A stretch of 64,000 nucleotides of DNA from a virus (taxonomy: Duplodnaviria; Caudoviricetes). Shown piece after piece: positions 52,398 to 64,000 of the stretch. Every line of letters starts with the position of its first letter. The stretch's first letter is position 1. Below the pieces are notes generated by a model. It had not been told where the DNA came from, searched no databases, and saw nothing but the letters and a program-made list of their open reading frames with translations. The stretch covers positions 1,156 to 65,155 of the IMG/VR virus record IMGVR_UViG_3300021957_000025, one strand, 5' to 3'. Both the position numbers and the translations under genes were made by a program.

Positions 52398-53471
52398 TTA
52401 ACTCGCATCTGTAGTCCTATCGCCTGCAAAACTTCTAGTAGAACCATCATCATAAAACGTTACTGTCTCTGCAACAACAAAGGTGTCATCGGGATTGACC
52501 GAACCAACAAACTTAAGATTGGTTTTTGCATCTAGTGTCACTGCACTTGATACTACAATACTTTGTTTGTCCTCAGCAATAGAGGATATAGTTGGATTCG
52601 TTCCTAAATTGGTACCGAACACTTCATCGTTTACACTTATCTTTGTATTTATTGCTGTTGGGAATGTTATTGTGGTGGACGAAGATACTGCATTTGAAAC
52701 AGCTGCAAAAGCTGGTTCATATGATTTGACCTCTTTAACCAATCCACTGTCTTCTATTTCACTGGTAGTGAATAGACCACTTGCAGTCTTAACTTGTCCT
52801 TGCACTCCGTCTGATATGTATGTTCTTTCGATAACATTCTTAATAATTTCACCAGTATATACTGGGCCGAAGAAGTACAGTTTCATCTGAAACTCCAATG
52901 TGTATTCTATAACACGTCTTTCTTCGAACGTACCTTCGTATTGGTCTTCCATTGATACGGAACTTAGAATAATTGGAACATCTCTATGGTCTGTCATAGA
53001 ATCAATCATCTTCATAGTAACCGTATATTCGGGTTGGAAATATGGCAGTATTTGTTCTACTATTTGTAGTGCATCATTCATGTTCTTTGCAAGAATTGAT
53101 AGACTAAATGTTAAATTGTATGGTGCTGGTTGATACTGAAATCCTCTCTTTCCTGTATCTGAACTTTCCAAATCGGATTTAGTATGTCGTATTAGTTTAT
53201 TTTGTTGTCTAGATGCATCATATTCAAACCCTGTAAGTTCGAATGCAAGTCTAGGCATACTAATTGCAGTTCTCATACCATCACCAAGGTCAGCATCTTC
53301 TGCTAGTCTTTGCAAGAACTTTTGTTTTGGCCCGTATGATATTGGTACCTTTTGTTCTGTTAGAACTGTACCATCTGATTTGGTTTTCTTAATTGTAATG
53401 TTATTGAACAGTGTTCCAAAAATGGATACTGCTCGTTTGAAAGTTTCATTATAAAAATAGGTACCGAACAT
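52398..53471 (-). CDS. gp15: tail sheath stabilizer/terminator with a C-terminal insertion
   Basis: FGTLFNNI, VPISYGPKQKFL and QIVEQILPYFQP motifs. Confidence 0.93.
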   Translation of the reverse strand: MFGTYFYNETFKRAVSIFGTLFNNITIKKTKSDGTVLTEQKVPISYGPKQKFLQRLAEDADLGDGMRTAISMPRLAFELTGFEYDASRQQNKLIRHTKSDLESSDTGKRGFQYQPAPYNLTFSLSILAKNMNDALQIVEQILPYFQPEYTVTMKMIDSMTDHRDVPIILSSVSMEDQYEGTFEERRVIEYTLEFQMKLYFFGPVYTGEIIKNVIERTYISDGVQGQVKTASGLFTTSEIEDSGLVKEVKSYEPAFAAVSNAVSSSTTITFPTAINTKISVNDEVFGTNLGTNPTISSIAEDKQSIVVSSAVTLDAKTNLKFVGSVNPDDTFVVAETVTFYDDGSTRSFAGDRTTDAS

Positions 53472-54334
53472 TATGTGACCTCACCGAATGGGTTAGTCTC
53501 TGAGAAATCTAAGTATCCATCTGCCTTGTCTTCAAAGTCTTTATTCTGTGCATCACCATCATTAGCAAACGTTAGCACGTCTGTAATCGATTCTATGACC
53601 ACTGTCTTACCACTTGATGCACCAACTAGGGTGTCACCAACTGCAAGTGTTCTAGTGACATCTTTGATAGTAAGTTTACGGATATTCCCAGTTGGGCCAG
53701 GTGTCCAACCAATGACTTCACCTGTTGCAGCTCCACTATAATTAAGAACCTCTTGAATCACAAAGTCTCCACTTGTATTTGAAACTTGCATTTCTATAGT
53801 ATAGGCTTGTTCGTTCTCCACTAAGTCTACCACTGTTCCAGTATCGAAATCTTCTCCACTGTATTCGAATAATTCACACTGCAGTTTGAATACAAACAGT
53901 TTTCCAACTTGATAGAATGGATTCTCATGTTCTACGAATTTTATTTCGAACATTGAACCACTCATAGGGAAGTAAATTAAATCACCTTCGTTGGGTCTCA
54001 ATGATGTTGTAAGGTTTGAATCTAGTGATATGAATCTTTCCCATGTTCTTAGGGATATAACGAATGTTGCTTGGTCTCTTACTTGTACACCGAACTTGGA
54101 CATGAGGTCTCCATCACCTTCAAATCCATCTGTATTTTCTAGATACATCTCTACTGAGTACGCATCTCCAAATTTAGACTGCACATCTTCACCAAGAATC
54201 GTGTCTTCTTCTACAATCTCTCTTGGTAGATAATACGTCTCGTGTCCAAACATCCTAAGTGACTCAACAACGATGTCTTCATATAACATCTGTTCAGTAT
54301 TAACTGCATGGTTAAAAAATACATTTGTCGGCAT
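53471..54334 (-). CDS. gp14: neck protein
   Basis: YYLPR, SKFG, RPNEGDLIYFP and DFSETNPFG motifs. Confidence 0.95.
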   Translation of the reverse strand: MPTNVFFNHAVNTEQMLYEDIVVESLRMFGHETYYLPREIVEEDTILGEDVQSKFGDAYSVEMYLENTDGFEGDGDLMSKFGVQVRDQATFVISLRTWERFISLDSNLTTSLRPNEGDLIYFPMSGSMFEIKFVEHENPFYQVGKLFVFKLQCELFEYSGEDFDTGTVVDLVENEQAYTIEMQVSNTSGDFVIQEVLNYSGAATGEVIGWTPGPTGNIRKLTIKDVTRTLAVGDTLVGASSGKTVVIESITDVLTFANDGDAQNKDFEDKADGYLDFSETNPFGEVT

Positions 54335-54338
54335 GTTT

Positions 54339-55154
54339 TTATCCCATTAAGTCCATGACTGGCATTTCAAAATTCAGTCTTGACTCTTCTTCTAATCTTG
54401 TAATTTCCTCTTGTGCTTCGGACTTCATCTGTGCAGCGTCTAATGTAACACCGCCCGGCAATGCAATTCCCGAAAACTTTGATAGGTTTTCACCCCACTG
54501 ATACTTAACTAATGCAGTACAGTATTTCTTCAACCACATGTCATTGTATACGTCTGTCATGTCTGTTGGGTCAATCTTTCTATAACATTCAATGATTAAG
54601 AACTCACCAGCAGTCAAACTGGATGCATCCAAATCTAGATACAATCTATTAGAATGCATGTTGTATCTTAAAGGTGTTCTTCCAACTAGAATATTATTCA
54701 TCATTGAAAGGTTCTGTTGCATCATTTCATAATGTAAAACGTTGGTTGAAGATAAGTCATACATGTCATTCAATCTTAATTGATATCTTAAGTCAAACAT
54801 ATTAAGGTTTGATTTATCATTGAATGGTAAAATGTTTATAACAGATAGTACATGTTCGGGTAAGGTAAGATAGTTCTGTTGTTCTTTGTAAGTTTGTCCA
54901 TCTATCACATGTCCACCTGCTGTAGCTGCAGAATGGGATTCGTTTGTTGTGAATGAGTCTATCTGATTTTGAGTTAGTTCGTGCTTAAGAAAACACTTCA
55001 CACTACCATCATAGCAGTATTCTCTAAAGTATTGAAGGCCTTCGTCAATTCTGTCATCGAACTGGTCATCATCCACGTTGATTTCCAACACAGGTGCGCC
55101 TAGTCTTCTCTTGACATACTCTTTGAGGGTTGCTTTTGAATTGGGTTCTGCCAT
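54339..55154 (-). CDS. gp13: neck protein
   Basis: RRLGAPVLEINV, QWGENLSKF and LPGGVTL motifs. Confidence 0.95.
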   Translation of the reverse strand: MAEPNSKATLKEYVKRRLGAPVLEINVDDDQFDDRIDEGLQYFREYCYDGSVKCFLKHELTQNQIDSFTTNESHSAATAGGHVIDGQTYKEQQNYLTLPEHVLSVINILPFNDKSNLNMFDLRYQLRLNDMYDLSSTNVLHYEMMQQNLSMMNNILVGRTPLRYNMHSNRLYLDLDASSLTAGEFLIIECYRKIDPTDMTDVYNDMWLKKYCTALVKYQWGENLSKFSGIALPGGVTLDAAQMKSEAQEEITRLEEESRLNFEMPVMDLMG

Positions 55155-55190
55155 AATAGTATTTCCTGTTTAATACTATTTATGCGTTTT

Positions 55191-55451
55191 TTATTCTTGG
55201 AAATAAGTCTTTGACGTAAGTTTGTCTATTTTGTCCGAAATACGATTCATTTGGTCAAGCAGTTTAGTCATGTCGCGTTCTATCTCCTCTCTTGTGACAT
55301 AATCTTTTGCTATTTCTTCACGTGTTTTATTGAGGAGAATACCTTGACGCGAAACTTCTGCTAAAGACGTTCTTAACAAGAATCCTATAGGTACTATGAT
55401 GAACACCGTAACGATGTTGAATAAGATATAAGGTGTGATAGTAATTTCCAT
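55191..55451 (-). CDS. single-TM coiled-coil protein
   Basis: TM helix then LLNKTREEIAKDYVT; late box 5 nt before the ATG. Confidence 0.75.
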   Translation of the reverse strand: MEITITPYILFNIVTVFIIVPIGFLLRTSLAEVSRQGILLNKTREEIAKDYVTREEIERDMTKLLDQMNRISDKIDKLTSKTYFQE

Positions 55452-55468
55452 ACTACTATTTAGAAAAT

Positions 55469-56179
55469 CTAGTTCAGTATGGGGTTGCCTTTCGAGTCTA
55501 ATTCGAAAACAAATTCATCTTCCGCTGGTAATTCCTGCCAAGGCTTTCTTGCGTCTGCAGAGTCACCAATGTATTGTACCCTACAATTAAAGGAGATTGA
55601 GTATCGGTCTTTGTCTGTGGGATTAGGTTCTACCATATGCATTGCACCACTAGGAAACATTACGAGTCTCCCAGTTTCTGGCTTGTATCCTATACTCTCT
55701 TGATGTCTTTGTACTGACGGATGGTCTGCAACTATCTTAGCATCGGTATTAATCATACTGAGGTCTCCCTCGTCACCGTCACCATGTACATAAAACACTC
55801 CACTATACCAACAACCATTATGTAAATGAGGTGTGTTCCATGCCCCTTTATCATTAATGTTTGCCCAAGTATTGTCTATACAAATCTGAGCTGCAGAGGG
55901 GTTGACCCCAAAATACAATTGTACTTCTTCTCTCAATGCAGTTTGTATGCATCTAATAATCTTTGCAAAAGACGGATGCTGTTCTATTCCATCGTGAGAC
56001 TGCCATCCAGTGTATCTGTTTGATATCTGTCTCCCCTTTGGGTCTCTTTGTCTCCACGCATTCATCTCATCTCTAAGAAAATTAAGATATTCGATGTCAA
56101 CAGCACCGTTACCATACCTTTCTTTATCAAGTAGGTCTCTTTCAAATATTACTGTGGGGAATGCTAATCTAACACTCAT
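55469..56179 (-). CDS. 2OG-Fe(II) oxygenase (TIGR02466-like)
   Basis: WANIN, PHLH, YSGVFY, FPSGAMHMVEPN and RYSISFN motifs. Confidence 0.9.
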   Translation of the reverse strand: MSVRLAFPTVIFERDLLDKERYGNGAVDIEYLNFLRDEMNAWRQRDPKGRQISNRYTGWQSHDGIEQHPSFAKIIRCIQTALREEVQLYFGVNPSAAQICIDNTWANINDKGAWNTPHLHNGCWYSGVFYVHGDGDEGDLSMINTDAKIVADHPSVQRHQESIGYKPETGRLVMFPSGAMHMVEPNPTDKDRYSISFNCRVQYIGDSADARKPWQELPAEDEFVFELDSKGNPILN

Positions 56180-57042
56180 GATTCTTCTCCTATTTCGGGA
56201 TTATGCATAGGACATTCGGGTGGTGGATTATCTTCTTTAAACATTCTACCCTTTTCATTCCAATACTTAATTCTTCGGTATGCCCCAGCCATTCCTTCTA
56301 TATGTCTTTTCTCTTCTCTAAGTTCGGGTGACCTATTCCATTCATCCATAGTTTTAATTTTTTCACCGTCTTCACCCACTCTATGTGTGGTTCTTACAGA
56401 ACGGTTTTCTTGCCAAGATTTATTATCGTATGTTATATATGATGCATTCCAAGTCTCTCTTCTGTAAGGTATTACTTGAACTAATGGTGTTCCTGCCTTA
56501 ATTGTAAAGGATTTACTTGTCTTAGGATAGAATATGATTTGTGAATTATCCATGTTAACATTAAATGTATCTGTATCTATGATACCTTGCCATGTTGCAA
56601 AATGAGTATTCTGAAACAAGAATGGGTCTAGGTATAGACAAGAATAGCCAGGCGGTGTTATAATATTCCAAGGACTTCTCATTTTGAATGCATCCATGGT
56701 GGGTGCATCTTCTTTCGGTAAATACGTAAAACTCTGACCCACTTGAGCTGCTGGATGTGTCGGGGAATGATATGGGTTCTCGGGGTCTGTCATAGCATGA
56801 GCTGCACCCTCGGTAGGAAGAATCACTTTCATATCTGCTTTTGCACAGATATACCATCCACTCTTTAACCAGTCATCCATTGCTGGACATGACCTAATGG
56901 TGTGTGTTTTATTTCCACGAACTACTTCTTGAACTTTCATAGTCTTCCACCAATCGGGAACAACCTTCTTTGCTAAGACTGGTTTCCATAATTCTGTGGT
57001 TCTCTTATCGTAAGTTGTGAATTCAATCGTAGGCATCTTCAC
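56176..57042 (-). CDS. conserved phage beta-rich protein found among oxygenase clusters
   Basis: PDWWK...TIRSCPAMDD...PWNIITPPGYSCL...GIIDTD...GTPLVQVIP. Confidence 0.7.
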   Translation of the reverse strand: MKMPTIEFTTYDKRTTELWKPVLAKKVVPDWWKTMKVQEVVRGNKTHTIRSCPAMDDWLKSGWYICAKADMKVILPTEGAAHAMTDPENPYHSPTHPAAQVGQSFTYLPKEDAPTMDAFKMRSPWNIITPPGYSCLYLDPFLFQNTHFATWQGIIDTDTFNVNMDNSQIIFYPKTSKSFTIKAGTPLVQVIPYRRETWNASYITYDNKSWQENRSVRTTHRVGEDGEKIKTMDEWNRSPELREEKRHIEGMAGAYRRIKYWNEKGRMFKEDNPPPECPMHNPEIGEES

Positions 57043-57727
57043 CCCATAAAGTTTTTATACTAATTTCATCTCCTCTTATTACCAAAGAACGTCTATCCAT
57101 ATATCGTGCCTTTGGAGATGGTGCATCTGCACCATGTGGAATTCTTCCGTCAAACATTAACAGTCTGTTCGGTTTAAAATATATCTCTTGTGTTTGGTGA
57201 TTCTTAATGTGGTTTGCTCTTCCATGGATTCCTTGTTGCATTTCATTATACAGTCTTAATGAACCGCCCCATGAATCATTCCAAAATCTATTTGGATAAT
57301 ATAGAAATGAAAGATTCCAACTATCATTGGAGTCACAATCTGCATGTGTGGTTCCTTCAAGTCCTTGAGTCTGTGAGTTCAATCCAAAGTATTGAAATCT
57401 TTCCCACATAAATCCAAAATCTGTTTGAAGTTTTCTATTAAACCAAGACATTAGGTAGGTATCGCTTGGTTCTATACCGTGTTCTAGTTCTAGGTTCTCA
57501 CCTCTAAAAAAACCAGCACCCCAAAAACTATGATGAGGCAATCCTGTAGGACTCCCACTACCAACTTGATTTGTCTTAGACCAATATTGTTTACGTGTAA
57601 TCTGCTTGTCTATAGCATGATGCATTGTTGTGGATAGATAATTATCAAGGACATACACATTCTTCAAAGGCATATCTTTGATATGAAAGGGTTCGTTAAT
57701 GAACTCTAACTCTACATCATCGAACAT
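57023..57727 (-). CDS. 2OG-Fe(II) oxygenase
   Basis: THAD, FLYYPN..W...WGG and PNRLLMFDGRIPHGA...R motifs. Confidence 0.88.
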   Translation of the reverse strand: MFDDVELEFINEPFHIKDMPLKNVYVLDNYLSTTMHHAIDKQITRKQYWSKTNQVGSGSPTGLPHHSFWGAGFFRGENLELEHGIEPSDTYLMSWFNRKLQTDFGFMWERFQYFGLNSQTQGLEGTTHADCDSNDSWNLSFLYYPNRFWNDSWGGSLRLYNEMQQGIHGRANHIKNHQTQEIYFKPNRLLMFDGRIPHGADAPSPKARYMDRRSLVIRGDEISIKTLWGEDAYD

Positions 57728-57730
57728 AAT

Positions 57731-58288
57731 CTATGCTCTAGTATCTTCGGGTATGTATGGACTTGGTAACTCACTTACGTAAGCATCAAAATCTTTAAGA
57801 AAATCTTCTCTAGTGGATTGAACTTCTTCAACAAGTTGAAATAAAACACAATTGACTGCGTCTGCATACTCCATGGCTCTTCTTGCATTGTTTCTATGGG
57901 GATGGTTTGAACCCTCTCTCCCAGCATAGGTTGCTTCACTCAAATCTTTAAATCTGTACTGAGCGCATTCTTCGTCAACATACTTGTCGACTTGCCTGAA
58001 TAGGTTATCCACAATTTGACTATTAAGACTATGACCCATAGGTGGTTCACTATTCTCAATATATTGTTCAATAATTTCACACTCTTCTTTTGAGAGTGCA
58101 ACTTTTTTTTGTTGGTCGAATCCTAGACCATCTTCCCAACGTTCAATTTTAACTTCGATATCATCATAGATGACAACATCATATTCAAACTCAAAAGCAG
58201 GTTTATCAACGTTTTCGTAGTTATACTCTAATCCGTTTGGTTTACGGACAAATATTGTACCATCGCTGTCGTATATAAATGCATTCAT
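57731..58288 (-). CDS. hypothetical protein (possible tail-fibre assembly chaperone)
   Basis: ORF with GAGG SD; the C-terminal helical region ending ELP resembles fibre-chaperone tails (weak). Confidence 0.6.
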   Translation of the reverse strand: MNAFIYDSDGTIFVRKPNGLEYNYENVDKPAFEFEYDVVIYDDIEVKIERWEDGLGFDQQKKVALSKEECEIIEQYIENSEPPMGHSLNSQIVDNLFRQVDKYVDEECAQYRFKDLSEATYAGREGSNHPHRNNARRAMEYADAVNCVLFQLVEEVQSTREDFLKDFDAYVSELPSPYIPEDTRA

Positions 58289-58319
58289 AATTATAGTTCC
58301 TCGTTACTATTATAACATA

Positions 58320-59897
58320 TTAATTGCCAATTGGCAACTTTCTTTTAACTTTTAAAAAGTCCTCTAGATTATTTATGGTGGAATAATCCATCCCCTTTAC
58401 CCAAGGGCCCCCACGTGTATAGTGGATACCACTATAATCATACTTCTCTTCGTGGTTATCATACCCTTCTACAAAGATATAGTGTTCGGGTATAGGAGAA
58501 ATCTTGTCTGTCCATTCGAATTGATGTAATTGTTTTCCTGTCCATGTGTTAACAACTTCGGGGGTCAACTTCTTACAATCTTCATGTCCGTTATTGAACA
58601 CCATCATACTAGACCATAGCTTCTTTGGATAGTCGATGTTTACTTCACCATCAAACTTTGTATCATCATGTTTGTATTGTGGATACTTAATACATGCAAC
58701 AGCATCGTTTGGATTTAGATAGTAGAACATTGGTAGTATACTTTTCTTAAAGATAAAATCATCATCAATAAAGATACTAAATCCTTCGTAATTCTCTAAG
58801 TAAGGTATTAAGAATCTACTGTATGTAAATTCAGTACTTTGATTTGCATACTCTCTAGTATACTCGGGAATCTCAGCAATGTCAAGTATTTTAACTTCGG
58901 GTTCCCATCTGACTTGGTCATGCATCCATCCATTACCGAAACCGCTTTTGATAGTTTCTAACAATGCAAACTTAGAACACTTAGACAAATCTCCATGTCT
59001 GCTATCATGTCCAATATAGATTGTTAGGGGTTTACCTTTTGCAAGTTCATAAACTTGTTTGTTGAATTCATGCACTTCATCTCTAAAATCTAAGTCCATC
59101 AATGCAGTATTGTATTCAATGCAACCATCAACATATGTGAATGAGCAATGATATGCTTTATCTAATCTTTTTAACTTATTATACCACATTTCTAGAACTT
59201 GGTCTAGGCTTGAAGGTTCAACCTTTACAACATCATAATCATCTAAGACCATGATTTCCATATCATTATTGTTCAATTCTTCAAACACACCACTTCTAAT
59301 AGAGCCTGGGTGTATTCTAAATGTATATGTTGGTTCGGTATTTAATCCTGTGATTCCATTGTTTATAACATATCCTTGAATTGGAGCTCTAAGACCTTCC
59401 TCTTGAATACTTTGAATCAACCAATGTGCTTTTGCACCATGATAATACATTGATAGTAATGAACCTTCAGATTGCTGATTTCTATCCACACCTTCCCAAT
59501 CAATTAATGTATCTAAATTAACATAACCATCTGCATCTTTCATATCCATTCCAGCATGGCCAGGAATTGGTGTCCTAGGTTTCTCTGCATATCCTACTGG
59601 TAAGAATTTGTGATAAGTTACAGACTCGTTTTTTAAACCATTAAACCCACCAAACCTATTTTCCTTTCTAAGGTATTCAAAGTCTGACCACTTTGCAATT
59701 TTTACTGGTGGTAATATCTCATCAAATAACCATTCAAGAATTTTATATATTTCTGTGGTTTTATCAAAGCCTGGTTCTATATTAAACGCACCTAAATGGA
59801 AATTACCAATACTCTGTCTGTCCTTCATTGACATGGACTTAAAGTCTTGGGGTATTATATGTTCTTTTGCTTCTTCAAGGGTAGTAATTTTCTTCAT
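58320..59897 (-). CDS. two-domain protein: ParB/Srx-like N-terminus and GT-A glycosyltransferase
   Basis: LIQSIQEEGLRAPI..IHPGSIR; YIGHDSR, STEFTYSRFLIPYL, DDDF (DxD), WSSMMVFN and HYTRGGPW; start MKKIT after a terminator and late box. Confidence 0.85.
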   Translation of the reverse strand: MKKITTLEEAKEHIIPQDFKSMSMKDRQSIGNFHLGAFNIEPGFDKTTEIYKILEWLFDEILPPVKIAKWSDFEYLRKENRFGGFNGLKNESVTYHKFLPVGYAEKPRTPIPGHAGMDMKDADGYVNLDTLIDWEGVDRNQQSEGSLLSMYYHGAKAHWLIQSIQEEGLRAPIQGYVINNGITGLNTEPTYTFRIHPGSIRSGVFEELNNNDMEIMVLDDYDVVKVEPSSLDQVLEMWYNKLKRLDKAYHCSFTYVDGCIEYNTALMDLDFRDEVHEFNKQVYELAKGKPLTIYIGHDSRHGDLSKCSKFALLETIKSGFGNGWMHDQVRWEPEVKILDIAEIPEYTREYANQSTEFTYSRFLIPYLENYEGFSIFIDDDFIFKKSILPMFYYLNPNDAVACIKYPQYKHDDTKFDGEVNIDYPKKLWSSMMVFNNGHEDCKKLTPEVVNTWTGKQLHQFEWTDKISPIPEHYIFVEGYDNHEEKYDYSGIHYTRGGPWVKGMDYSTINNLEDFLKVKRKLPIGN

Positions 59898-59914
59898 ACA
59901 TGTATTTAGTGAGC

Positions 59915-59941
59915 AAAAAAAACCCCTCTTTCGAGGGGTTT
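59915..59941 (-). terminator. rho-independent terminator after the repeat proteins
   Basis: AAACCCCUC-GAAA-GAGGGG followed by U8; same stem as the gp23 terminator. Confidence 0.9.
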
Positions 59942-59961
59942 GTTCACTGTCGGGTAAGTTC

Positions 59962-61404
59962 CTATGATGTAATTGGGGTTGCAGGCCACTGTTGTGAACC
60001 AACTCCATCCCATCTTGCTTCGGGGGTTTGACCCTGTCTTGCATACGTGAATGGACTTCTATGTTGATACGTAAATGGAGTCTGACCAGTTCTTTGATAT
60101 GTGAACGGACTTCTATGTTGATACGTAAACGGTGTTCGACCCTGTCTTGCATACGTGAATGGAGACCTGTGCTGATAAGTGAACGGTGTTTGACCTGTTC
60201 TCTGATAAGTAAACGGAGTCTGTGCATTACGTATATTAGGTTCTTGAGCAGCTGCAATGTATGGATACGGTTGCTGTGCATCTCTAATATTAGGTTCTTG
60301 AGCATTCACTGGATTCTGATAAGTGAACGGTGACCTATGCTGATATGTAGCAGGTTGACGTGCATTACTAGGATTCTGATAAGTGAACGGACTTCTATAT
60401 TGATAAGTAAACGGAGTCTGAGCATTACGTATATTAGGCTCCTGTTGACTTCTAATATTAGGTTCTTGTGCATTTCTAATATTAGGTTCTTGAGCAGATA
60501 CAGGGTTCCTATATGTAAATGGAGACCTATGACTGTACGTAAACGGAGTCTGAGCATTACGTATATTAGGCTCCTGTTGACTTCTAATATTAGGTTCTTG
60601 TGCAGAACGTATATTAGGTTCTTGAGCAGATACAGGGTTCCTATATGTAAATGGAGACCTATGACTGTACGTAAACGGTGTTTGACTGTTTCTAATATTA
60701 GGTTCCTGTTGACTTCTAATATTAGGTTGTTGAGCAGCTCTAATGTTCGGTTCTTGTGCAGATACAGGGTTCCTATAAGTGAAAGGTGACCTGTGCTGAT
60801 AAGTGAACGGAGTCTGAGCATTACGTATATTAGGTTCCTGTTGACTTCTAATATTAGGTTGTTGTGCTGACCTTATGTTTGGTTCTTGTGCAGATACAGG
60901 GTTCCTGTAAGTGAACGGACTTCTATATTGATAAGTAAACGGTGCTTGATTACTTCTAATATTAGGTTCTTGCTGACTTCTAATATTAGGTTCTTGTGCC
61001 GAACGTATATTAGGTTCTTGTGCAGATACAGGGTTCCTGTACGTAAATGGTGACCTATGGTTATAAGTAAACGGAGACCTATGACTGTACGTAAATGGAC
61101 TCCTTGCATTATTAGGTTGTCTCGCAGACATAGGATGTCTGTAAGTAAACGGATTCTGAAACGTAAACGGTTGCTGAGCATTCGCTGGATATCTTGCACT
61201 ATATGTAAATGGTGCTTGGAACGTAAACGGTTGCTGTGCATTCGCGGGATATCTTGCACTATACGTAAATGGTGTCTGTACATTTGCAGCGTTAGGTTGC
61301 TGTCCATTCGCTGGATATCTTGCACTATAAGTGAAAGGATTTTGCGATGCCACAGATTGCTGTCTGTTAGCAGTGTATGGTTGTTGTCTGTTACCTATTG
61401 GCAT
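59962..61404 (-). CDS. Pro/Gln/Arg/Tyr repeat protein B (480 aa), probable virion fibre
   Basis: AGGAG SD; built from xxQEPNIR and xxxxPFTY octamers. Confidence 0.8.
   Translation of the reverse strand: MPIGNRQQPYTANRQQSVASQNPFTYSARYPANGQQPNAANVQTPFTYSARYPANAQQPFTFQAPFTYSARYPANAQQPFTFQNPFTYRHPMSARQPNNARSPFTYSHRSPFTYNHRSPFTYRNPVSAQEPNIRSAQEPNIRSQQEPNIRSNQAPFTYQYRSPFTYRNPVSAQEPNIRSAQQPNIRSQQEPNIRNAQTPFTYQHRSPFTYRNPVSAQEPNIRAAQQPNIRSQQEPNIRNSQTPFTYSHRSPFTYRNPVSAQEPNIRSAQEPNIRSQQEPNIRNAQTPFTYSHRSPFTYRNPVSAQEPNIRNAQEPNIRSQQEPNIRNAQTPFTYQYRSPFTYQNPSNARQPATYQHRSPFTYQNPVNAQEPNIRDAQQPYPYIAAAQEPNIRNAQTPFTYQRTGQTPFTYQHRSPFTYARQGRTPFTYQHRSPFTYQRTGQTPFTYQHRSPFTYARQGQTPEARWDGVGSQQWPATPITS
60379..61038 (-). 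repeat. five tandem 132-nt (44-aa) coding repeats
   Basis: RNPVSAQEPNIR-SAQEPNIR-SQQEPNIR-NAQTPFTY-xxRSPFTY x5. Confidence 0.9.
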
Positions 61405-61451
61405 CTGTAACTCCTGTTAATTTAGTATTATATCTTTTCATAGTCATCGGC

Positions 61452-63032
61452 TTATGGTTCACAGAAGTTACCCCCACCAAACGGACTTCCATACGAGAAG
61501 TAGTAGGTGAATGGGAATCTAGCGTTATACTGTTGTGGTGACTGTGAGATAACAGGTTGTCTAGCATTTGCAATATACGGTACTCTATAAGTGAACGGAC
61601 TCCTTGAATTGGATATTGAAGGTTGTCTTGCATTAGCAATGTAAGGTACTCTGTATGTAAATGGATTCCTTGCACTATTCGGTTGTCTTGCATTAGCAAT
61701 GTACGGCACTCTGTATGTAAATGGGTTCCTCGCATTATTCGGTTGTCTTGCATTACTTGGTTGTTGATAAGTAAATGGTGCTTGGAATGTAAACGGTTGT
61801 TGAGCATTCTTAATCGTAGGTTGCTGAGCATTCTTAATCGTAGGTTGCTGTGCAGATACAGGACTTCTATACGTAAATGGAGACCTATGACTGTACGTAT
61901 ATGGAGACCTATGACTATAAGTTAACGGACTTCTATGTTGGTACGTAGAAGGTTGCCTTGCACTACGTATGTTTGGCTCTTGAGCAGATACAGGACTTCT
62001 ATACGTAAATGGAGACCTATGTTGATACGTAAACGGAGACCTATGACTATATGTTAAAGGTGACCTATGCTGATATGTAGAAGGTTGACGTGCATCTCTA
62101 ATATTAGGTTCTTGTGCAGATACAGGACTTCTATAAGTGAACGGAGACCTATGTTGATAAGTAAACGGAGACCTGTGACTATATGTTAACGGTGACCTAT
62201 GTTGATACGTAGCAGGTTGTCTTGCATCACGTATATTAGGCTCTTGTCCATTCACTGGACTTCTATATGTAAATGGAGACCTATGACTGTACGTATATGG
62301 AGACCTGTGACTATATGTTAACGGTGACCTATGTTGATACGTAGAAGGTTGACGTGCATCTCTAATATTAGGTTCTTGAGCATTCACTGGACTTCTATAT
62401 GTAAATGGAGACCTATGACTGTACGTATATGGAGACCTATGATTATAAGTTAACGGACTTCTATGTTGATACGTAGAAGGTTGTCTTGCATCACGTATAT
62501 TAGGCTCTTGTCCATTCACTGGATTTCTATAAGTGAAAGGTGTTTGACTATTACGTATATTAGGTTCTTGTCCATTCACTGGGTTTCTATAAGTGAAAGG
62601 AGACCTATGTTGATACGTAAATGGTGTTTGTCCCTGTCTAGCATATGTAAAAGGACTTCTATGTTGATACGTAGAAGGTTGTCTTGCATTTGCTATATAA
62701 GGGTACGGTTGTTGTGCTGACCTTATGTTTGGTTCTTGTCCATTCGCTATATAAGGATACGGTTGTTGTGCATCTCTTATGTTTGGTTGTTGTGCATTTG
62801 CAATATAAGGATACGGTTGTTGTGCATCCCTTATGTTTGGTTGTTGTGCATTTGCAATATATGGATATGGAATTTGAGTTGCAGTCTGCCCTGATGCATT
62901 GTTCCATCCAGTAGGGGTTTTAATATAGATTTGGTCGACTGCTTTCCATGTGGAAGAACCAGTCTTTACCCATGCACCTTGGGTTGAATTCCAACCTGCT
63001 GGTGTTTTGACCTTTTGTGAACCTGTTGCCAT
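61452..63032 (-). CDS. Pro/Gln/Arg/Tyr repeat protein A (526 aa), probable virion fibre
   Basis: N-terminal VKTPAGW..WVKTGSSTWK..YIKTPTGW module seen in fibre proteins; late box upstream. Confidence 0.8.
   Translation of the reverse strand: MATGSQKVKTPAGWNSTQGAWVKTGSSTWKAVDQIYIKTPTGWNNASGQTATQIPYPYIANAQQPNIRDAQQPYPYIANAQQPNIRDAQQPYPYIANGQEPNIRSAQQPYPYIANARQPSTYQHRSPFTYARQGQTPFTYQHRSPFTYRNPVNGQEPNIRNSQTPFTYRNPVNGQEPNIRDARQPSTYQHRSPLTYNHRSPYTYSHRSPFTYRSPVNAQEPNIRDARQPSTYQHRSPLTYSHRSPYTYSHRSPFTYRSPVNGQEPNIRDARQPATYQHRSPLTYSHRSPFTYQHRSPFTYRSPVSAQEPNIRDARQPSTYQHRSPLTYSHRSPFTYQHRSPFTYRSPVSAQEPNIRSARQPSTYQHRSPLTYSHRSPYTYSHRSPFTYRSPVSAQQPTIKNAQQPTIKNAQQPFTFQAPFTYQQPSNARQPNNARNPFTYRVPYIANARQPNSARNPFTYRVPYIANARQPSISNSRSPFTYRVPYIANARQPVISQSPQQYNARFPFTYYFSYGSPFGGGNFCEP
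61869..62528 (-). repeat. five tandem 132-nt (44-aa) coding repeats
   Basis: R(S/N)PVxxQEPNIR-DARQPSTY-QHRSPLTY-SHRSPxTY-xHRSPFTY x5. Confidence 0.9.
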
Positions 63033-63083
63033 TTAATTATCCATTAATAATACTGTTATTTATTAGAATTCTAAACTCCTAGA

Positions 63084-64000
63084 TTAGGAGTAAAGAATCC
63101 ACATATCACCAACCGCTCCATCTGAACTCTGTGGAGCAGATGTTGATTGGTACATATTTCTTGCAGTTCCACCACTGTTAGATGCATTTGTTATTGTTAA
63201 TGCACCTGTGGATACCGCTGCTGGTGTCACTGTTAATGCACCAGTTGAAGAACCTGTTGCAGTAGTTGTTCCGAATGCAAAACTTGATGCACTATCGTCC
63301 CAACCCATAAACACGTTACTTTCATCACCTCTTTCAATGACAATACCTGCGTCTCCAGCTGGAGCCCCAGTTGTCCCTGTTCCCAACTCAATCAAAGAAT
63401 CTTCGATGGTTGTGTTAGTTGAACTTACTGTTGAAGTAGAACCATTAACTGTTAGGTTACCACTTAATGTTAAGTCTCCAAACGTTACGTTACTTGAAGT
63501 TGCAACTGGCTGACCAATACTGAATGCACCACCACTATATGATACACCAGTTCCAGCACTTAAATGAGCTCTTGTCTCAGATGCACTTGGCCCTGTGTAA
63601 GTTATTGCACCAGTTGAACTATTATATGAAAGTGAACCATCTCCACCACTGTCTGTTACTGATACTAGACCTCTTACTTCTGCATCTGTTCTTTCTGTAA
63701 ATGAGATTGCACCAGTTCCACTGTTGTATGATAAATCTCCACCAGCAGATAATAAACCTCTGATATTTGCATCTGAGTAACCAGCAAGTGTAAGTGTTCC
63801 AGCTGCATCATCATATGTAGAAGTGATGTTTGTTCCACCAACTACTAATCCGTTTACGATGTCTTCTACTTGTTCTGTAGATAGTTGAGTGTTAGTTGTT
63901 GTGACCGAACCACCCAATGCAACTGATTGACCATCAACTGTTATTGTGCTGTTTGATAATTTTGCGTTTGCAATAGAACCTGCTAACATGGCATTAGTAA
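63084..64000 (-). CDS. C-terminal part of a tail-fibre/virion structural protein (continues beyond the window)
   Basis: G/S/T-rich; LSYNSxTGAI repeats, GNLTVNG, DAGIVIERG, terminal SAPQSSDGAVGDMWI. Confidence 0.85.
   Translation of the reverse strand, partial: TNAMLAGSIANAKLSNSTITVDGQSVALGGSVTTTNTQLSTEQVEDIVNGLVVGGTNITSTYDDAAGTLTLAGYSDANIRGLLSAGGDLSYNSGTGAISFTERTDAEVRGLVSVTDSGGDGSLSYNSSTGAITYTGPSASETRAHLSAGTGVSYSGGAFSIGQPVATSSNVTFGDLTLSGNLTVNGSTSTVSSTNTTIEDSLIELGTGTTGAPAGDAGIVIERGDESNVFMGWDDSASSFAFGTTTATGSSTGALTVTPAAVSTGALTITNASNSGGTARNMYQSTSAPQSSDGAVGDMWILYS

What the first reader, a model, noticed from the sequence alone, without database searches (positions are those of the whole stretch)
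59962..63032. Two adjacent repeat proteins with the same 5 x 44-aa period and mirror-image motif order: a probable antiparallel heterodimeric beta-ribbon
Seen: both proteins contain exactly five 44-aa units (12+8+8+8+8), with Pro every 6-8 residues. The unit compositions are complementary: A has one PNIR and four PxTY segments, B has three PNIR and two PFTY. The flanks are mirrored. A's N-terminal motifs (QQPYPYIAxxQEPNIR, PFTYARQGQTP) recur at B's C-terminus, and A's C-terminal motifs (AQQPFTFQAPFTY, ARQPNNARxPFTY) recur at B's N-terminus. They are separate genes, since B has its own AGGAG SD. Inference: A runs outward and B runs back in register to form a long thin filament or ruler, so repeat number must co-evolve between two genes. 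This differs from standard trimeric tail fibres.
Basis: partly seen in the sequence, partly recalled or inferred. Interest (0 to 1): 0.85.

Follow-up and report, generated by a model that had tools for sequence, protein, structure and literature searches.

The report
Mirror-coded two-protein phage fibre
Two neighbouring genes of an uncultured marine T4-like phage encode long proline-punctuated repeat proteins that match each other segment for segment when one is read backwards, which suggests they zip together head-to-tail into one thin rod whose length both genes have to change together.

Summary
A (61452-63032, 526 aa) and B (59962-61404, 480 aa) each hold 5.1 copies of a 132-bp (44-aa) unit, and B has its own AGGAG.

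- In 74 of 78 related viral contigs A is directly followed by B. They are never fused.
- Rod lengths range from 231 to 548 aa and track each other (r 0.99). All 11 well-separated sister pairs changed both genes by nearly the same amount. Unmatched lengths occur only between near-identical contigs.
- Laying B backwards on A at one constant offset puts 87% of B's prolines on A's (window 61 of 65, z 12.9). This beats the best parallel fit in 53 of 53 pairs.
- 286 of 302 ten-residue landmarks have their counterpart at exactly the mirrored place.
- Spacings between shared prolines are all even.
- Within 8-residue intervals one chain carries PxTY and the other PNIR or PYIA: 946 complementary, 0 T:T, 0 N:N.

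No DNA inverted repeat explains this. My best reading is an antiparallel A:B duplex, probably a beta-ribbon fibre, with a conserved base and a variable tip. Physical binding, stoichiometry and virion location are not shown, and the structure predictors gave no usable answer. No known family fits.

The parts
61452..63032 (-). Gene A, 526 aa: N-terminal domain, rod, short Gly-rich tail
   Evidence: ORF and translation. The start MATGSQKV.. is conserved in 74 related loci.
62874..63032 (-). A residues 1-53: conserved N-terminal domain (two KTPxGWN motifs). Its last strand (aa 36-52) lies opposite B's C-terminal tail in the mirror alignment.
   Evidence: It holds 26 invariant residues among 34 aligned A proteins. 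Against 1.84 billion representatives it has 28 hits at E<=1e-3, of which 25 match from the first six residues of the hit protein (A-type proteins or short fragments) and 3 are weak internal multi-stretch matches. Mirror alignment.
62661..62870 (-). A residues 55-124: four PYPYIA ten-residue landmarks in 18-aa repeats (PYPYIAxAQQPNIRDAQQ)
   Evidence: y54, 72, 90, 108 in A face R9, 27, 45, 63 counted from B's C-end.
61861..62531 (-). A array: 5.1 x 132 bp (44 aa: T T T T' v N)
61455..61478 (-). A C-terminal tail GGGNFCEP. This is the place where relatives carry a Hint/BIL-like domain or a 145-155 aa tip domain.
61405..61451 (-). A-B spacer of 47 nt with AGGAG at 61415-61411
   Evidence: Among 36 distinct junctions in relatives there are always two genes, and 29 have an SD-like motif.
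59962..61404 (-). Gene B, 480 aa: rod over nearly its whole length plus a conserved C-terminal tail
   Evidence: The end ..RWDG..WP[AG]TPI[TS]S is conserved in relatives.
60404..61076 (-). B array: 5.1 x 132 bp (44 aa: T T' v N N N), the complement of A's unit when read backwards
60019..60207 (-). B residues 400-462: four xRQGxT ten-residue landmarks in 18-aa repeats, mirror partners of A's PYPYIA landmarks
59965..60015 (-). B residues 464-480: conserved tail RWDGVGSQQWPATPITS, placed opposite A residues 36-52 (W473 opposite W43)
58320..59909 (-). Conserved neighbour: 529-aa protein with a C-terminal GT8-like glycosyltransferase domain. The longer ORF up to 60305 is a repeat-driven 5' extension.
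55469..58288 (-). Conserved neighbours: orf185, a 2OG-Fe(II) oxygenase, orf288, a 2OG-Fe(II) oxygenase
63084..63998 (-). C-terminal part of a large virion structural protein just upstream of A. The contig ends here.
   Evidence: phrog_697 and phrog_6002. Syntenic in 76 of 78 loci. Contig end.

Best explanation
A and B are the two strands of one rod. They associate side by side over their whole length in opposite directions, so that A residue i lies next to B residue about 516 - i.

The rod is divided by prolines into 6-, 8- and 10-residue rungs. In each rung one chain supplies an aromatic PxTY segment and the other a PNIR, PYIA or PVxx segment.

The invariant parts, A's 53-aa N-domain and B's RWDG..WPxTPITS tail, come together at one end and probably dock the rod on the virion. 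A's C-end and B's N-end meet at the far end, which is where relatives carry variable tip modules.

Because the chains must stay in register, any insertion or deletion of repeats in one gene has to be matched in the other.

Shown here: the mirrored register, the complement rule, the length covariation and the obligate gene pairing.

Inferred:
- Direct physical contact between the chains.
- A two-stranded antiparallel beta ladder, from the even-only spacing.
- 1:1 stoichiometry.
- A role as a fibre. If straight, at about 3.3 A per residue, it would be about 150 nm in the window and 76-180 nm in relatives.
For: 1. Pairing of the genes. A is directly followed by B in 74 of 78 loci, and the other 4 are cut at a contig end. 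In one MAG-binned contig the order is B then A, and the mirror still holds: 24 of 26 B prolines at offset 35 against 15 for the best parallel fit.

2. Length. Among 51 unique tips the correlation of rod A with rod B is r = 0.988, and |rodA - rodB| <= 16 in 47 of 51. There are 25 independent sister pairs. All 11 with marker-tree distance >= 0.12 changed both rods alike: -144/-144, -77/-76, 16/16, -50/-46, 47/44, -29/-26, 161/160, -34/-17, 154/148, -46/-38, -21/-24. Eight did not change, and 6 unmatched changes all lie at distance <= 0.024.

3. Register. Reversed B over A at offset 35-36 matches on average 87% of B's prolines, against 55% for the best parallel offset. Antiparallel wins in 53 of 53 unique pairs. 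Against segment-shuffled B, z ranges from 6.1 to 13 with a median of 10.2. The window's peak is sharp: 61 at offset 35, and 0-5 at offsets 30-34 and 36-40.

4. Landmarks. The count of PYPYIA in A equals the count of xRQGxT in B in 45 of 53 pairs, over a range of 2-11, and the same holds the other way round. Of 302 landmarks in A, 286 have the complementary landmark in B at exactly the mirrored place and 9 more are one residue off.

5. Complement rule in 46 pairs and 1992 rungs. Among 8-mers: T:N 360, N:T 264, T:I 136, I:T 186, T:T 0, N:N 0, I:I 0. Among 6-mers: T:v 186, v:T 233, T:n 51, n:T 116, v:v 1, T:T 73. In the window 58 of 59 rungs are complementary.

6. Spacings between shared prolines are all even: 4, 6, 8, 10 ... 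20, n = 2050. In the window they are 6 x22, 8 x32, 10 x5, 14 x1.

7. It is not a nucleic-acid effect. There is no inverted DNA repeat >= 16 nt in 59962-63032.

8. Variable tip modules sit at A's C-end, and a small 85-100 aa ORF appears between A and B only where A has the extra tip domain.

9. The pair sits in the virion-gene block just upstream of gp13/gp14, the place of gp12 and wac in T4 (the T4 gene order is recalled).
Against: No experiment or confident model shows contact.

- Both chains are net basic: window A rod +40 and B +30, with means of +0.066 and +0.070 per residue. There is therefore no charge complementarity.
- The exact residue register is not fixed. Residue-pair mutual information is higher with B slid by 2 (1.64 bits) than with Pro opposite Pro (1.38 bits).
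- Six near-identical contig pairs differ in one gene only, by 18-88 aa. These are either real unmatched variants or assembly errors.
- T:T does occur in 6-residue rungs, 73 times.
- A two-stranded ribbon of more than 450 residues has no precedent that I know of (own knowledge). A bundle of several duplexes is equally compatible.
- Virion location is inferred from gene position only.
- The fold-back signal in single-chain paralogs is mixed. Pooled over 45 proteins, the classes of the segments that start at each shared proline show no such exclusion (N:N 17, y:y 44). The rule holds in the six third-paralog proteins checked and only partly or not at all in P0109 and P0111.
Confidence: 0.7

Rival explanations
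1. The pairing is real, but the product is not a receptor-reaching virion fibre. For example it could be a long basic beta-ribbon that lies along DNA or another polyanion (an internal or condensing protein), or a decoration or adhesive strand.
For: Both chains are strongly basic. B gives weak sub-threshold matches to the beta-ribbon arm region (profile positions 50-81 of 90) of HU-beta and HU-alpha: 28.7 and 24.6 bits against cut-offs of 157 and 162, with no stretch passing on its own. No PHROG tail-fibre family matches.
Against: The pair sits inside the virion-gene block next to a large structural protein and the neck genes. One end is conserved and the other variable, with swappable tip domains plus a small downstream ORF. 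That is the layout of host-range fibres (established knowledge of tail-fibre loci). The HU matches are far below threshold.
Confidence: 0.15
2. A and B co-assemble in parallel, for instance as a heterotrimeric triple beta-helix or another in-register parallel fibre.
For: The dominant octapeptide period resembles the gp5-type triple beta-helix (recalled). Central units of A and B share PFTYRNPVSAQEPNIR, and a segment-order alignment scores higher forwards than backwards in the window (54 against 10).
Against: The best parallel overlay matches fewer prolines in 53 of 53 pairs. In a parallel arrangement the ten-residue landmarks would lie at opposite ends, yet they match one-to-one in mirrored order. 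The forward score reflects only the shared direction of motifs inside units.
Confidence: 0.03
3. There is no direct contact. The two genes co-vary through concerted evolution of neighbouring repeat arrays, or because both proteins measure against a third template.
For: The genes are adjacent paralogous repeat arrays, and A's C-part is often similar to B's N-part.
Against: Gene conversion would make the arrays alike in the same direction. It would not make them complementary in type (T against N or I, with 0 T:T and 0 N:N among 8-mers) in mirrored order. Landmarks of different sequence (PYPYIA against xRQGxT) correspond exactly. Rod length varies 2.3-fold among phages with the same neighbouring genes. 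The register survives a swap of gene order.
Confidence: 0.05
4. The pattern is a nucleic-acid artefact: an inverted DNA duplication, mRNA pairing, or one ORF being the antisense of the other kind.
For: The PNIR codons form a short palindrome (CTAATATTAG) in the repeat consensus. Long ORFs are open in several frames on both strands.
Against: There is no inverted repeat >= 16 nt across both genes. The antisense translations of A's N-part are unlike B. Both frames are fixed by conserved starts and ends in 74 loci.
Confidence: 0.01

Closest known systems
Needle domain of the phage T4 long-tail-fibre tip, gp37
   Same: It is a thin phage fibre in which the chain runs out to the tip and back as extended antiparallel strands (recalled from the crystal-structure paper, which I did not see here). 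The passage I read in PMC6957217 confirms a needle with seven iron sites formed by His of three subunits.
   Different: In T4 the out and back strands belong to one chain of a homotrimer, the needle is short, and it is held by HxH iron sites. Here the two directions are separate gene products, the rods are 231-548 residues long, there is no HxH (0 in A and B), and no sequence match to any solved chain. Whether duplexes bundle in threes is unknown.
Obligate heteromeric fibrous proteins with matched rods (keratin type I/II, spectrin alpha/beta, collagen I alpha1/alpha2)
   Same: Separate genes encode chains that must fit along a long rod, so lengths and registers are constrained together (recalled).
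   Different: Those are alpha-helical coiled coils, spectrin repeats or Gly-X-Y triple helices. Here the period is 2 residues with proline-bounded rungs, there are no Gly-X-Y runs, and there is a rung-by-rung two-letter complement rule.
Bacterial intein-like (BIL) / Hint domains
   Same: Many relatives of A carry a domain after a Gly run that starts with Cys, has a T..H motif and ends in His-Asn, with no nucleophile after it. The passages read in PMC7765530 describe A-type BIL domains with terminal His-Asn, lying in hypervariable regions and cleaving at their own ends.
   Different: The window's A has no such domain (it ends GGGNFCEP). Pfam scores in the relative tested are below the gathering cut-offs: PF14890 31.1 against 35.8 and PF01079 21 against 29.7. 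Activity is untested.
Two-stranded beta-ribbon arms of HU/IHF, and single-layer beta rods such as SasG/Aap or OspA
   Same: These are solvent-exposed beta ribbons or single-layer sheets without a classical core. The HU arms are basic and contain proline (recalled).
   Different: The HU arms are about 25 residues of one chain. The match of B is far below threshold. SasG and OspA are single chains.

Membership tests
Pfam PF10511 Cementoin (trappin transglutaminase-substrate repeat) | Score at or above the gathering cut-off | tested here: met
   A scores 28.0 bits and B 29.1 bits against a cut-off of 27. For B no single stretch passes on its own.
Pfam PF10511 Cementoin (trappin transglutaminase-substrate repeat) | Hexapeptide repeats offering both Gln and Lys as cross-linking residues (recalled definition) | tested here: not met
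   B has 0 Lys and A has 7, most of them in the N-domain. The period is 6/8/10 within a 44-aa unit. I read the hit as compositional and do not file the proteins here.
T4 gp37-type fibre needle | HxH metal-binding motifs along the needle | tested here: not met
   0 HxH in A and 0 in B
T4 gp37-type fibre needle | Sequence similarity to solved fibre chains | tested here: not met
   phmmer of B against all PDB chains gave 0 hits at E<=1. The ESM Atlas lead 'gp37_trimer' scored 0.82, below the 0.9 level that counts.
T4 gp37-type fibre needle | Out-and-back antiparallel strands; trimer | tested here: inconclusive
   Antiparallel co-linearity is met, but between two chains. Oligomer state could not be tested with these tools.
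Collagen-like triple helix | Gly-X-Y repeats | tested here: not met
   0 runs of three G-X-Y in A or B. A has 15 Gly and B has 8.
gp5-type triple beta-helix (octapeptide VxGxxxxx, parallel homotrimer; recalled) | Octapeptide period | tested here: met
   8-residue spacing is the commonest
gp5-type triple beta-helix (octapeptide VxGxxxxx, parallel homotrimer; recalled) | Conserved Gly in each octapeptide; parallel in-register chains | tested here: not met
   Gly is nearly absent from the rods. The parallel overlay is inferior in 53 of 53 pairs.
Hint / BIL domain | Cys after the Gly run, T..H motif, terminal His-Asn | tested here: not met
   Absent from the window's A, which ends GGGNFCEP. Present in relatives such as L020, L028, L040, L046 and L070, where Pfam scores are below the cut-offs.
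HU/IHF (NCBIfam NF007945, NF008023) | Score at the curated cut-off | tested here: not met
   28.7 against 157 and 24.6 against 162, with 0 stretches
Annotated phage tail-fibre or structural families (PHROGs) | Any PHROG match | tested here: not met
   0 families for A and 0 for B at E<=1e-3

The most novel reading that the evidence does not exclude
A natural protein 'double strand'. Two gene products pair antiparallel through a two-letter, rung-by-rung complement rule: PxTY against PNIR, PYIA or PVxx, with 10-residue rungs opposite 10-residue rungs. This rule sets register and length much as base pairing does, so fibre length and sequence evolve by paired changes in two genes.

In lineages where a Hint/BIL-like domain sits at the end of the outgoing strand, its thioester chemistry may trim that strand or even join it to the start of the returning strand at the tip, closing the hairpin covalently.
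Probability: 0.3. Interest if true: 0.95.

Novelty: categorically new. Interest (0 to 1): 0.9.

Why it matters
If the two chains pair as the sequences imply, this is a fibrous-protein architecture not described for phages. The abstract of PMC12143355, seen in the search listing, describes tail fibres as trimeric proteins.

The complement rule could be read directly from sequence, so it can be tested by swap-and-compensate mutations and could be used to design rods of set length.

It also offers a worked natural case of two genes forced to change length together. There are at least 11 independent co-changes, and the unmatched variants seen only between near-identical contigs fit, if they are real, selection removing them.

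The family is common in marine viral metagenomes. 434 proteins scored E<=1e-3 among the 8000 candidates scored. Of the 24 sequencing runs listed, 20, from 15 studies, hold at least half of the window stretch.

The family has no annotation. It may be the host-range organ of an uncultured clade of T4-like phages.

Tried and rejected
**Structure and complex prediction**
- Complex prediction of window A 1-212 with B 304-480, each with my own alignment: the verdict was 'no answer', ipSAE 0.00 in both runs, and the partner's own fold was uncertain. This is evidence neither for nor against binding.
- AlphaFold2 on two single-chain relatives with alignments: P0109 gave mean pLDDT 35.8 and P0080 gave 31.2. 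The repeat regions were unmodelled, so no fold search was made.
- The window's own A and B were never folded.

**Searches that found nothing useful**
- megablast of 53000-64000 against cultured phages: no match.
- tblastn of A against cultured phages: 2 low-identity, partial records.
- PDB sequence search: 0 hits.
- ESM Atlas: best score 0.86, only leads.
- Proteins of 922-2630 aa, looking for fused forms: 0 of 5815 candidates. The tool itself calls this weak evidence.
- Exact look-up of A and B in the protein collection: not present.

**Analyses of mine that did not settle anything**
- Global segment-order alignment forwards against backwards favoured forwards. It is dominated by motif direction inside the units, so I rejected it as a test of orientation.
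- Quarter-by-quarter local alignment showed that flank similarity is clade-specific.
- Standardised contrasts through the origin (r = -0.04) were swamped by zero-length branches. I used sister pairs instead.
- The first code table compared segments that start at the same shared proline. These lie in adjacent rungs, so one search replaces it.
- Self-mirror scan of 62 single-chain paralogs: mostly z < 5, and the proline-anchored class table over the 45 with at least 10 shared proline pairs showed no exclusion. I accepted only the third-paralog class, and P0109 in part.

**Other**
- Logan contigs of 4 runs are broken inside the repeats, so copy number could not be checked. The RNA libraries hold the sequence, but that does not show transcription.
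- Literature searches turned up nothing on this family. None of the 15 papers listed held PYPYIA. These searches do not prove absence.
Full report
**What is there.** All genes of the window lie on the minus strand. A (61452..63032, 526 aa) and B (59962..61404, 480 aa) are adjacent ORFs. They are separated by 47 nt that hold AGGAG 6 nt before B's ATG. Tandem Repeats Finder reports a 132-bp period with 5.1 copies in both genes, at 61861-62531 and 60404-61076. Cut at prolines, A's unit reads T T T T' v N and B's reads T T' v N N N. Here T is an 8-residue PxTY segment, T' a 6-residue PFTY, v a 6-residue PVxx and N an 8-residue PNIR.

**Family searches.** Neither protein belongs to a described family.
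- PHROGs gives nothing.
- Pfam gives only a marginal, compositional Cementoin hit.
- NCBIfam gives nothing for A and two far sub-threshold HU-arm matches for B.
- No solved chain matches B at E<=1.

**Context.** The window is most of a 65,155-bp viral contig estimated 36% complete, and the contig ends at window position 64000. Downstream of B lie, in order:
- a 529-aa protein with a GT8-like domain,
- an unknown 185-aa ORF,
- a 2OG-Fe(II) oxygenase,
- an unknown 288-aa ORF,
- a second 2OG oxygenase,
- then gp13, gp14, gp15, both terminase subunits, sheath, tube, portal, protease, scaffold and major head protein.

Upstream of A is the end of a very large structural protein. The pair thus sits where T4 has gp12 and wac (T4 order recalled). 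No cultured phage is close: megablast finds nothing, and gp14 is at most about 42% identical to the gp14 of cyanomyoviruses. The stretch itself is widespread. Of the 24 runs listed, 20, from 15 marine or estuarine studies, hold at least half of its sampled words. Contigs identical to the window bridge the A/B junction in two DNA runs.

**Relatives.** A word-seeded search found 434 proteins at E<=1e-3 among the 8000 candidates scored. A scan of viral contigs returned 78 distinct loci. In 74 of them an A-type gene (MA[ST]G[SNK]Q..) is followed by a B-type gene (ending ..WPxTPI..). In the other four (L029, L042, L052, L072) a contig end removes one gene. The whole cassette from the large structural protein to gp14 is syntenic in 71-76 of the 78 loci. 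Among 36 distinct A/B junctions the genes are always separate, with gaps of -1 to 65 nt, or 283-529 nt (and 809 nt in L044, where A is broken) where extra sequence lies between them. No protein of 922-2630 aa matched A, which is weak evidence against a long fused form.

**Lengths co-vary.** I measured A's rod from the first PYPY to its C-terminal module and B's rod up to RWD. For the tree analysis I did the following.
- I used the 72 pairs that have all four marker genes.
- I removed duplicates and dropped L044, whose A is broken, which left 51 tips.
- I corrected one mis-measured rod (L078).

Rods span 231-548 aa. The correlation is 0.988, and 47 of 51 pairs differ by at most 16 residues. On a tree of four neighbouring genes, 25 non-overlapping sister pairs gave this result.
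- All 11 pairs at distance >= 0.12 changed both rods by nearly the same amount, from -144/-144 to +161/+160.
- 8 pairs did not change.
- 6 pairs changed in one gene only (18-88 aa), all at distance <= 0.024.

Unmatched forms therefore appear only at the tips. That fits selection against them, though metagenome assembly errors in repeats would give the same picture.

**The register is antiparallel.** Overlaying the proline positions of reversed B on A gives a single sharp optimum at the same offset (35-36) in almost all pairs. It matches on average 87% of B's prolines, against 55% for the best parallel offset, and it is better than parallel in 53 of 53 unique pairs. In the window 61 of B's 65 prolines coincide. 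Neighbouring offsets give 0-5, and a slip of one 44-aa unit gives 42. Shuffling the order of B's segments gives 21.2 +/- 3.1, so z is 12.9. Across the 53 pairs z is at least 6.1, with a median of 10.2.

Ten-residue segments serve as landmarks. The number of PYPYIA in A equals the number of xRQGxT in B in 45 of 53 pairs, over a range of 2-11, and the converse holds as well. Their places mirror exactly. In L037, twelve landmarks in A at 54, 72 ... 376 face twelve in B at 9, 27 ... 331 counted from B's C-end, always 45 apart. Overall 286 of 302 landmarks in A have their counterpart at exactly the mirrored place, and 9 more are one residue off. A contig binned with a Sphingobacteriales MAG has the genes in the order B then A and still shows the same offset, with 24 of 26 prolines matched. 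The two genes share no inverted DNA repeat of 16 nt or more, so this is a property of the proteins.

**A complement rule.** I took the stretch between two consecutive shared prolines as one rung and classified the A and B segments lying in it. This used the 46 of 53 pairs whose optimum is at offset 35-37. Seven were left out: L004, L009, L014, L043, L051, L056 and L062, most of them the unmatched-length forms. The total was 1992 rungs.
- 8-residue rungs: T:N 360, N:T 264, T:PYIA 136, PYIA:T 186. T:T, N:N and PYIA:PYIA are each 0.
- 6-residue rungs: mostly T against PVxx or PNxA (586 in total), with 73 T:T and 1 v:v.
- 10-residue rungs: PYPY.. against a 10-residue T segment in 269 of 281.

In the window 58 of 59 rungs are complementary. 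Spacings between shared prolines are without exception even, over 2050 spacings. That is the expectation if all prolines occupy the same class of position in a structure with a two-residue period, such as an antiparallel beta ladder (inference).

With Pro placed opposite Pro, the commonest facing pairs are P:P, Q:T, R:I, A:Y, Q:F, S:N and H:R, in both directions. Mutual information is higher still with B slid by two residues, which puts Tyr opposite Arg (803 cases, with no Y:Y or R:R). The fine register therefore stays open.

**Ends.** The conserved parts meet at one end. A's N-domain has 26 invariant residues among 34 sequences. Of its 28 hits among 1.84 billion representatives, 25 match from the first six residues of the hit protein (A-type proteins or short fragments) and 3 are weak internal matches. 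B's invariant R-W-D...W-P tail lies opposite A residues 36-52.

The other end is variable. A ends in one of three ways.
- Just after a Gly run, as in the window (GGGNFCEP).
- With a Hint/BIL-like domain inserted between the Gly run and a short tail. This domain starts with Cys, has T..H and ends in His-Asn, and the next residue is F, M, R, L, G or I.
- With an unrelated 145-155 aa domain.

Only in the third case do one or two small ORFs of 85-100 aa lie between A and B. This is the position that fibre chaperones take in known tail-fibre loci (established knowledge). The passages I read in PMC7765530 describe A-type BIL domains with terminal His-Asn in hypervariable proteins that cleave at their own ends. 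The primary papers were seen only as references there.

**Single-chain relatives.** A third paralog (MADEIYIN..., about 490 aa) lies about 7 kb upstream of A in many loci. That would be beyond the end of the window's contig. It folds back on itself in the same sense. In P0080 and P0074 the PYPY landmarks face RQG landmarks in cis, and the N-terminal strand faces ..GVFVN... In the six proteins of this class that I checked, the 8-residue rungs are complementary with no T:T. P0109 shows it in part and P0111 does not. Most other single-chain paralogs give no clear signal. In L088 this paralog is itself split into an outgoing gene ending in a Hint domain and a returning gene.

**Reading.** The simplest account of mirrored, residue-exact, complementary and co-varying sequences in two always-paired genes is that the chains lie against each other in opposite directions along the whole rod. 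I put this at about 0.85. I put a two-stranded beta ribbon as its basic form at about 0.55, and an external fibre with a conserved base and a variable tip at about 0.6. The combined statement gets 0.7, with stoichiometry and bundling left open. Straight, such a rod would measure about 150 nm (inference from 3.3 A per residue).

Against this reading:
- Both chains are basic.
- Nothing physical has been measured.
- A ribbon this long is unprecedented to my knowledge.

The parallel, no-contact and nucleic-acid rivals are each contradicted by specific results. A non-fibre role for the duplex remains possible.

**What could not be done.** The structure tools gave no usable answer. Copy number could not be verified in independent assemblies. 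Supplementary files of papers were not consulted. None of the claims here depends on them.

Noticed in passing
relatives: e.g. L020:8001-10100, L028:8001-9830, L046:8001-9485, L070:8001-9410; P0003, P0004, P0007: A Hint/BIL-like domain (Cys after a Gly run, T..H, terminal His-Asn, no nucleophile after it) is inserted between A's rod and a short tail (RQQK, GEEK, GIKP). That tail resembles the C-tails of Hint-less A proteins. B starts 3-40 nt later. The window's A lacks the domain.
   Followed up: partly
L017:7871-8153, L037, L065, L071, L078, L047 (between A and B): One or two small ORFs of 85-100 aa, rich in Asp and Glu by eye, occur between A and B only where A carries an extra 145-155 aa C-terminal domain. 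This is a chaperone-like position.
   Followed up: partly
L087:5995-7790 (contig binned with a Sphingobacteriales MAG); L088 (Verrucomicrobiales MAG): In L087 the gene order is B then A, with the same downstream cassette and the same mirror offset. The MAG labels may hint at hosts or may be mis-binned phage contigs.
   Followed up: partly
L088:3032-5457: The third paralog is split into two genes with overlapping stop and start. The first is an outgoing arm plus a domain plus Hint (560 aa). The second is a returning arm (247 aa) ending ..VPTAQFQL.
   Followed up: no
window 55469-59909: A cassette of a GT8-like protein, two 2OG-Fe(II) oxygenases and two unknown ORFs lies between B and gp13 and is syntenic in 74-76 of 78 loci. 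It could modify the Pro/Asn/Arg/Tyr-rich rods. Only the GT domain has distant relatives in cultured phages.
   Followed up: partly
window 58320-60305: The 661-aa ORF that overlaps B's 3' end is a stop-free extension through the repeats. Homology to relatives starts near 59909 (MKKITTLEEAKEH..).
   Followed up: yes
L004, L009, L014, L017, L051, L056 compared with their near-identical sisters: One gene differs by 18-88 aa while the partner gene and the flanking genes are identical or nearly so. These are either real unmatched variants or collapsed repeats in short-read assemblies.
   Followed up: no
window 60404-61076 and elsewhere in both genes: The PNIR codons form a short DNA palindrome (CTAATATTAG within CCTAATATTAGR) in the repeat consensus. 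No longer inverted repeat exists.
   Followed up: yes
window, whole: All 10 exact TATAAATA sites (a T4 late-promoter-like motif, recalled) lie on the gene strand, several just upstream of structural genes. Chance would give 4.9, and 3 of 100 shuffles reach 10. None lies directly before A or B. Upstream of A there is TAATAAATA.
   Followed up: no
A and B rods, window and 52 other pairs: Both chains are net basic: the window's A rod is +40 and B is +30. The aromatic content of the two chains is similar in the window's clade, but in some other clades B is much poorer in Tyr and Phe than A.
   Followed up: no
P0072, P0079, P0081, P0095, P0099, P0100 (MADKLFIK..) and P0119, P0120: These paralogs have 9-11 PYPYIA landmarks and 0-1 RQG landmarks. 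By the counting rule they should have an unseen partner chain rich in RQG landmarks.
   Followed up: no
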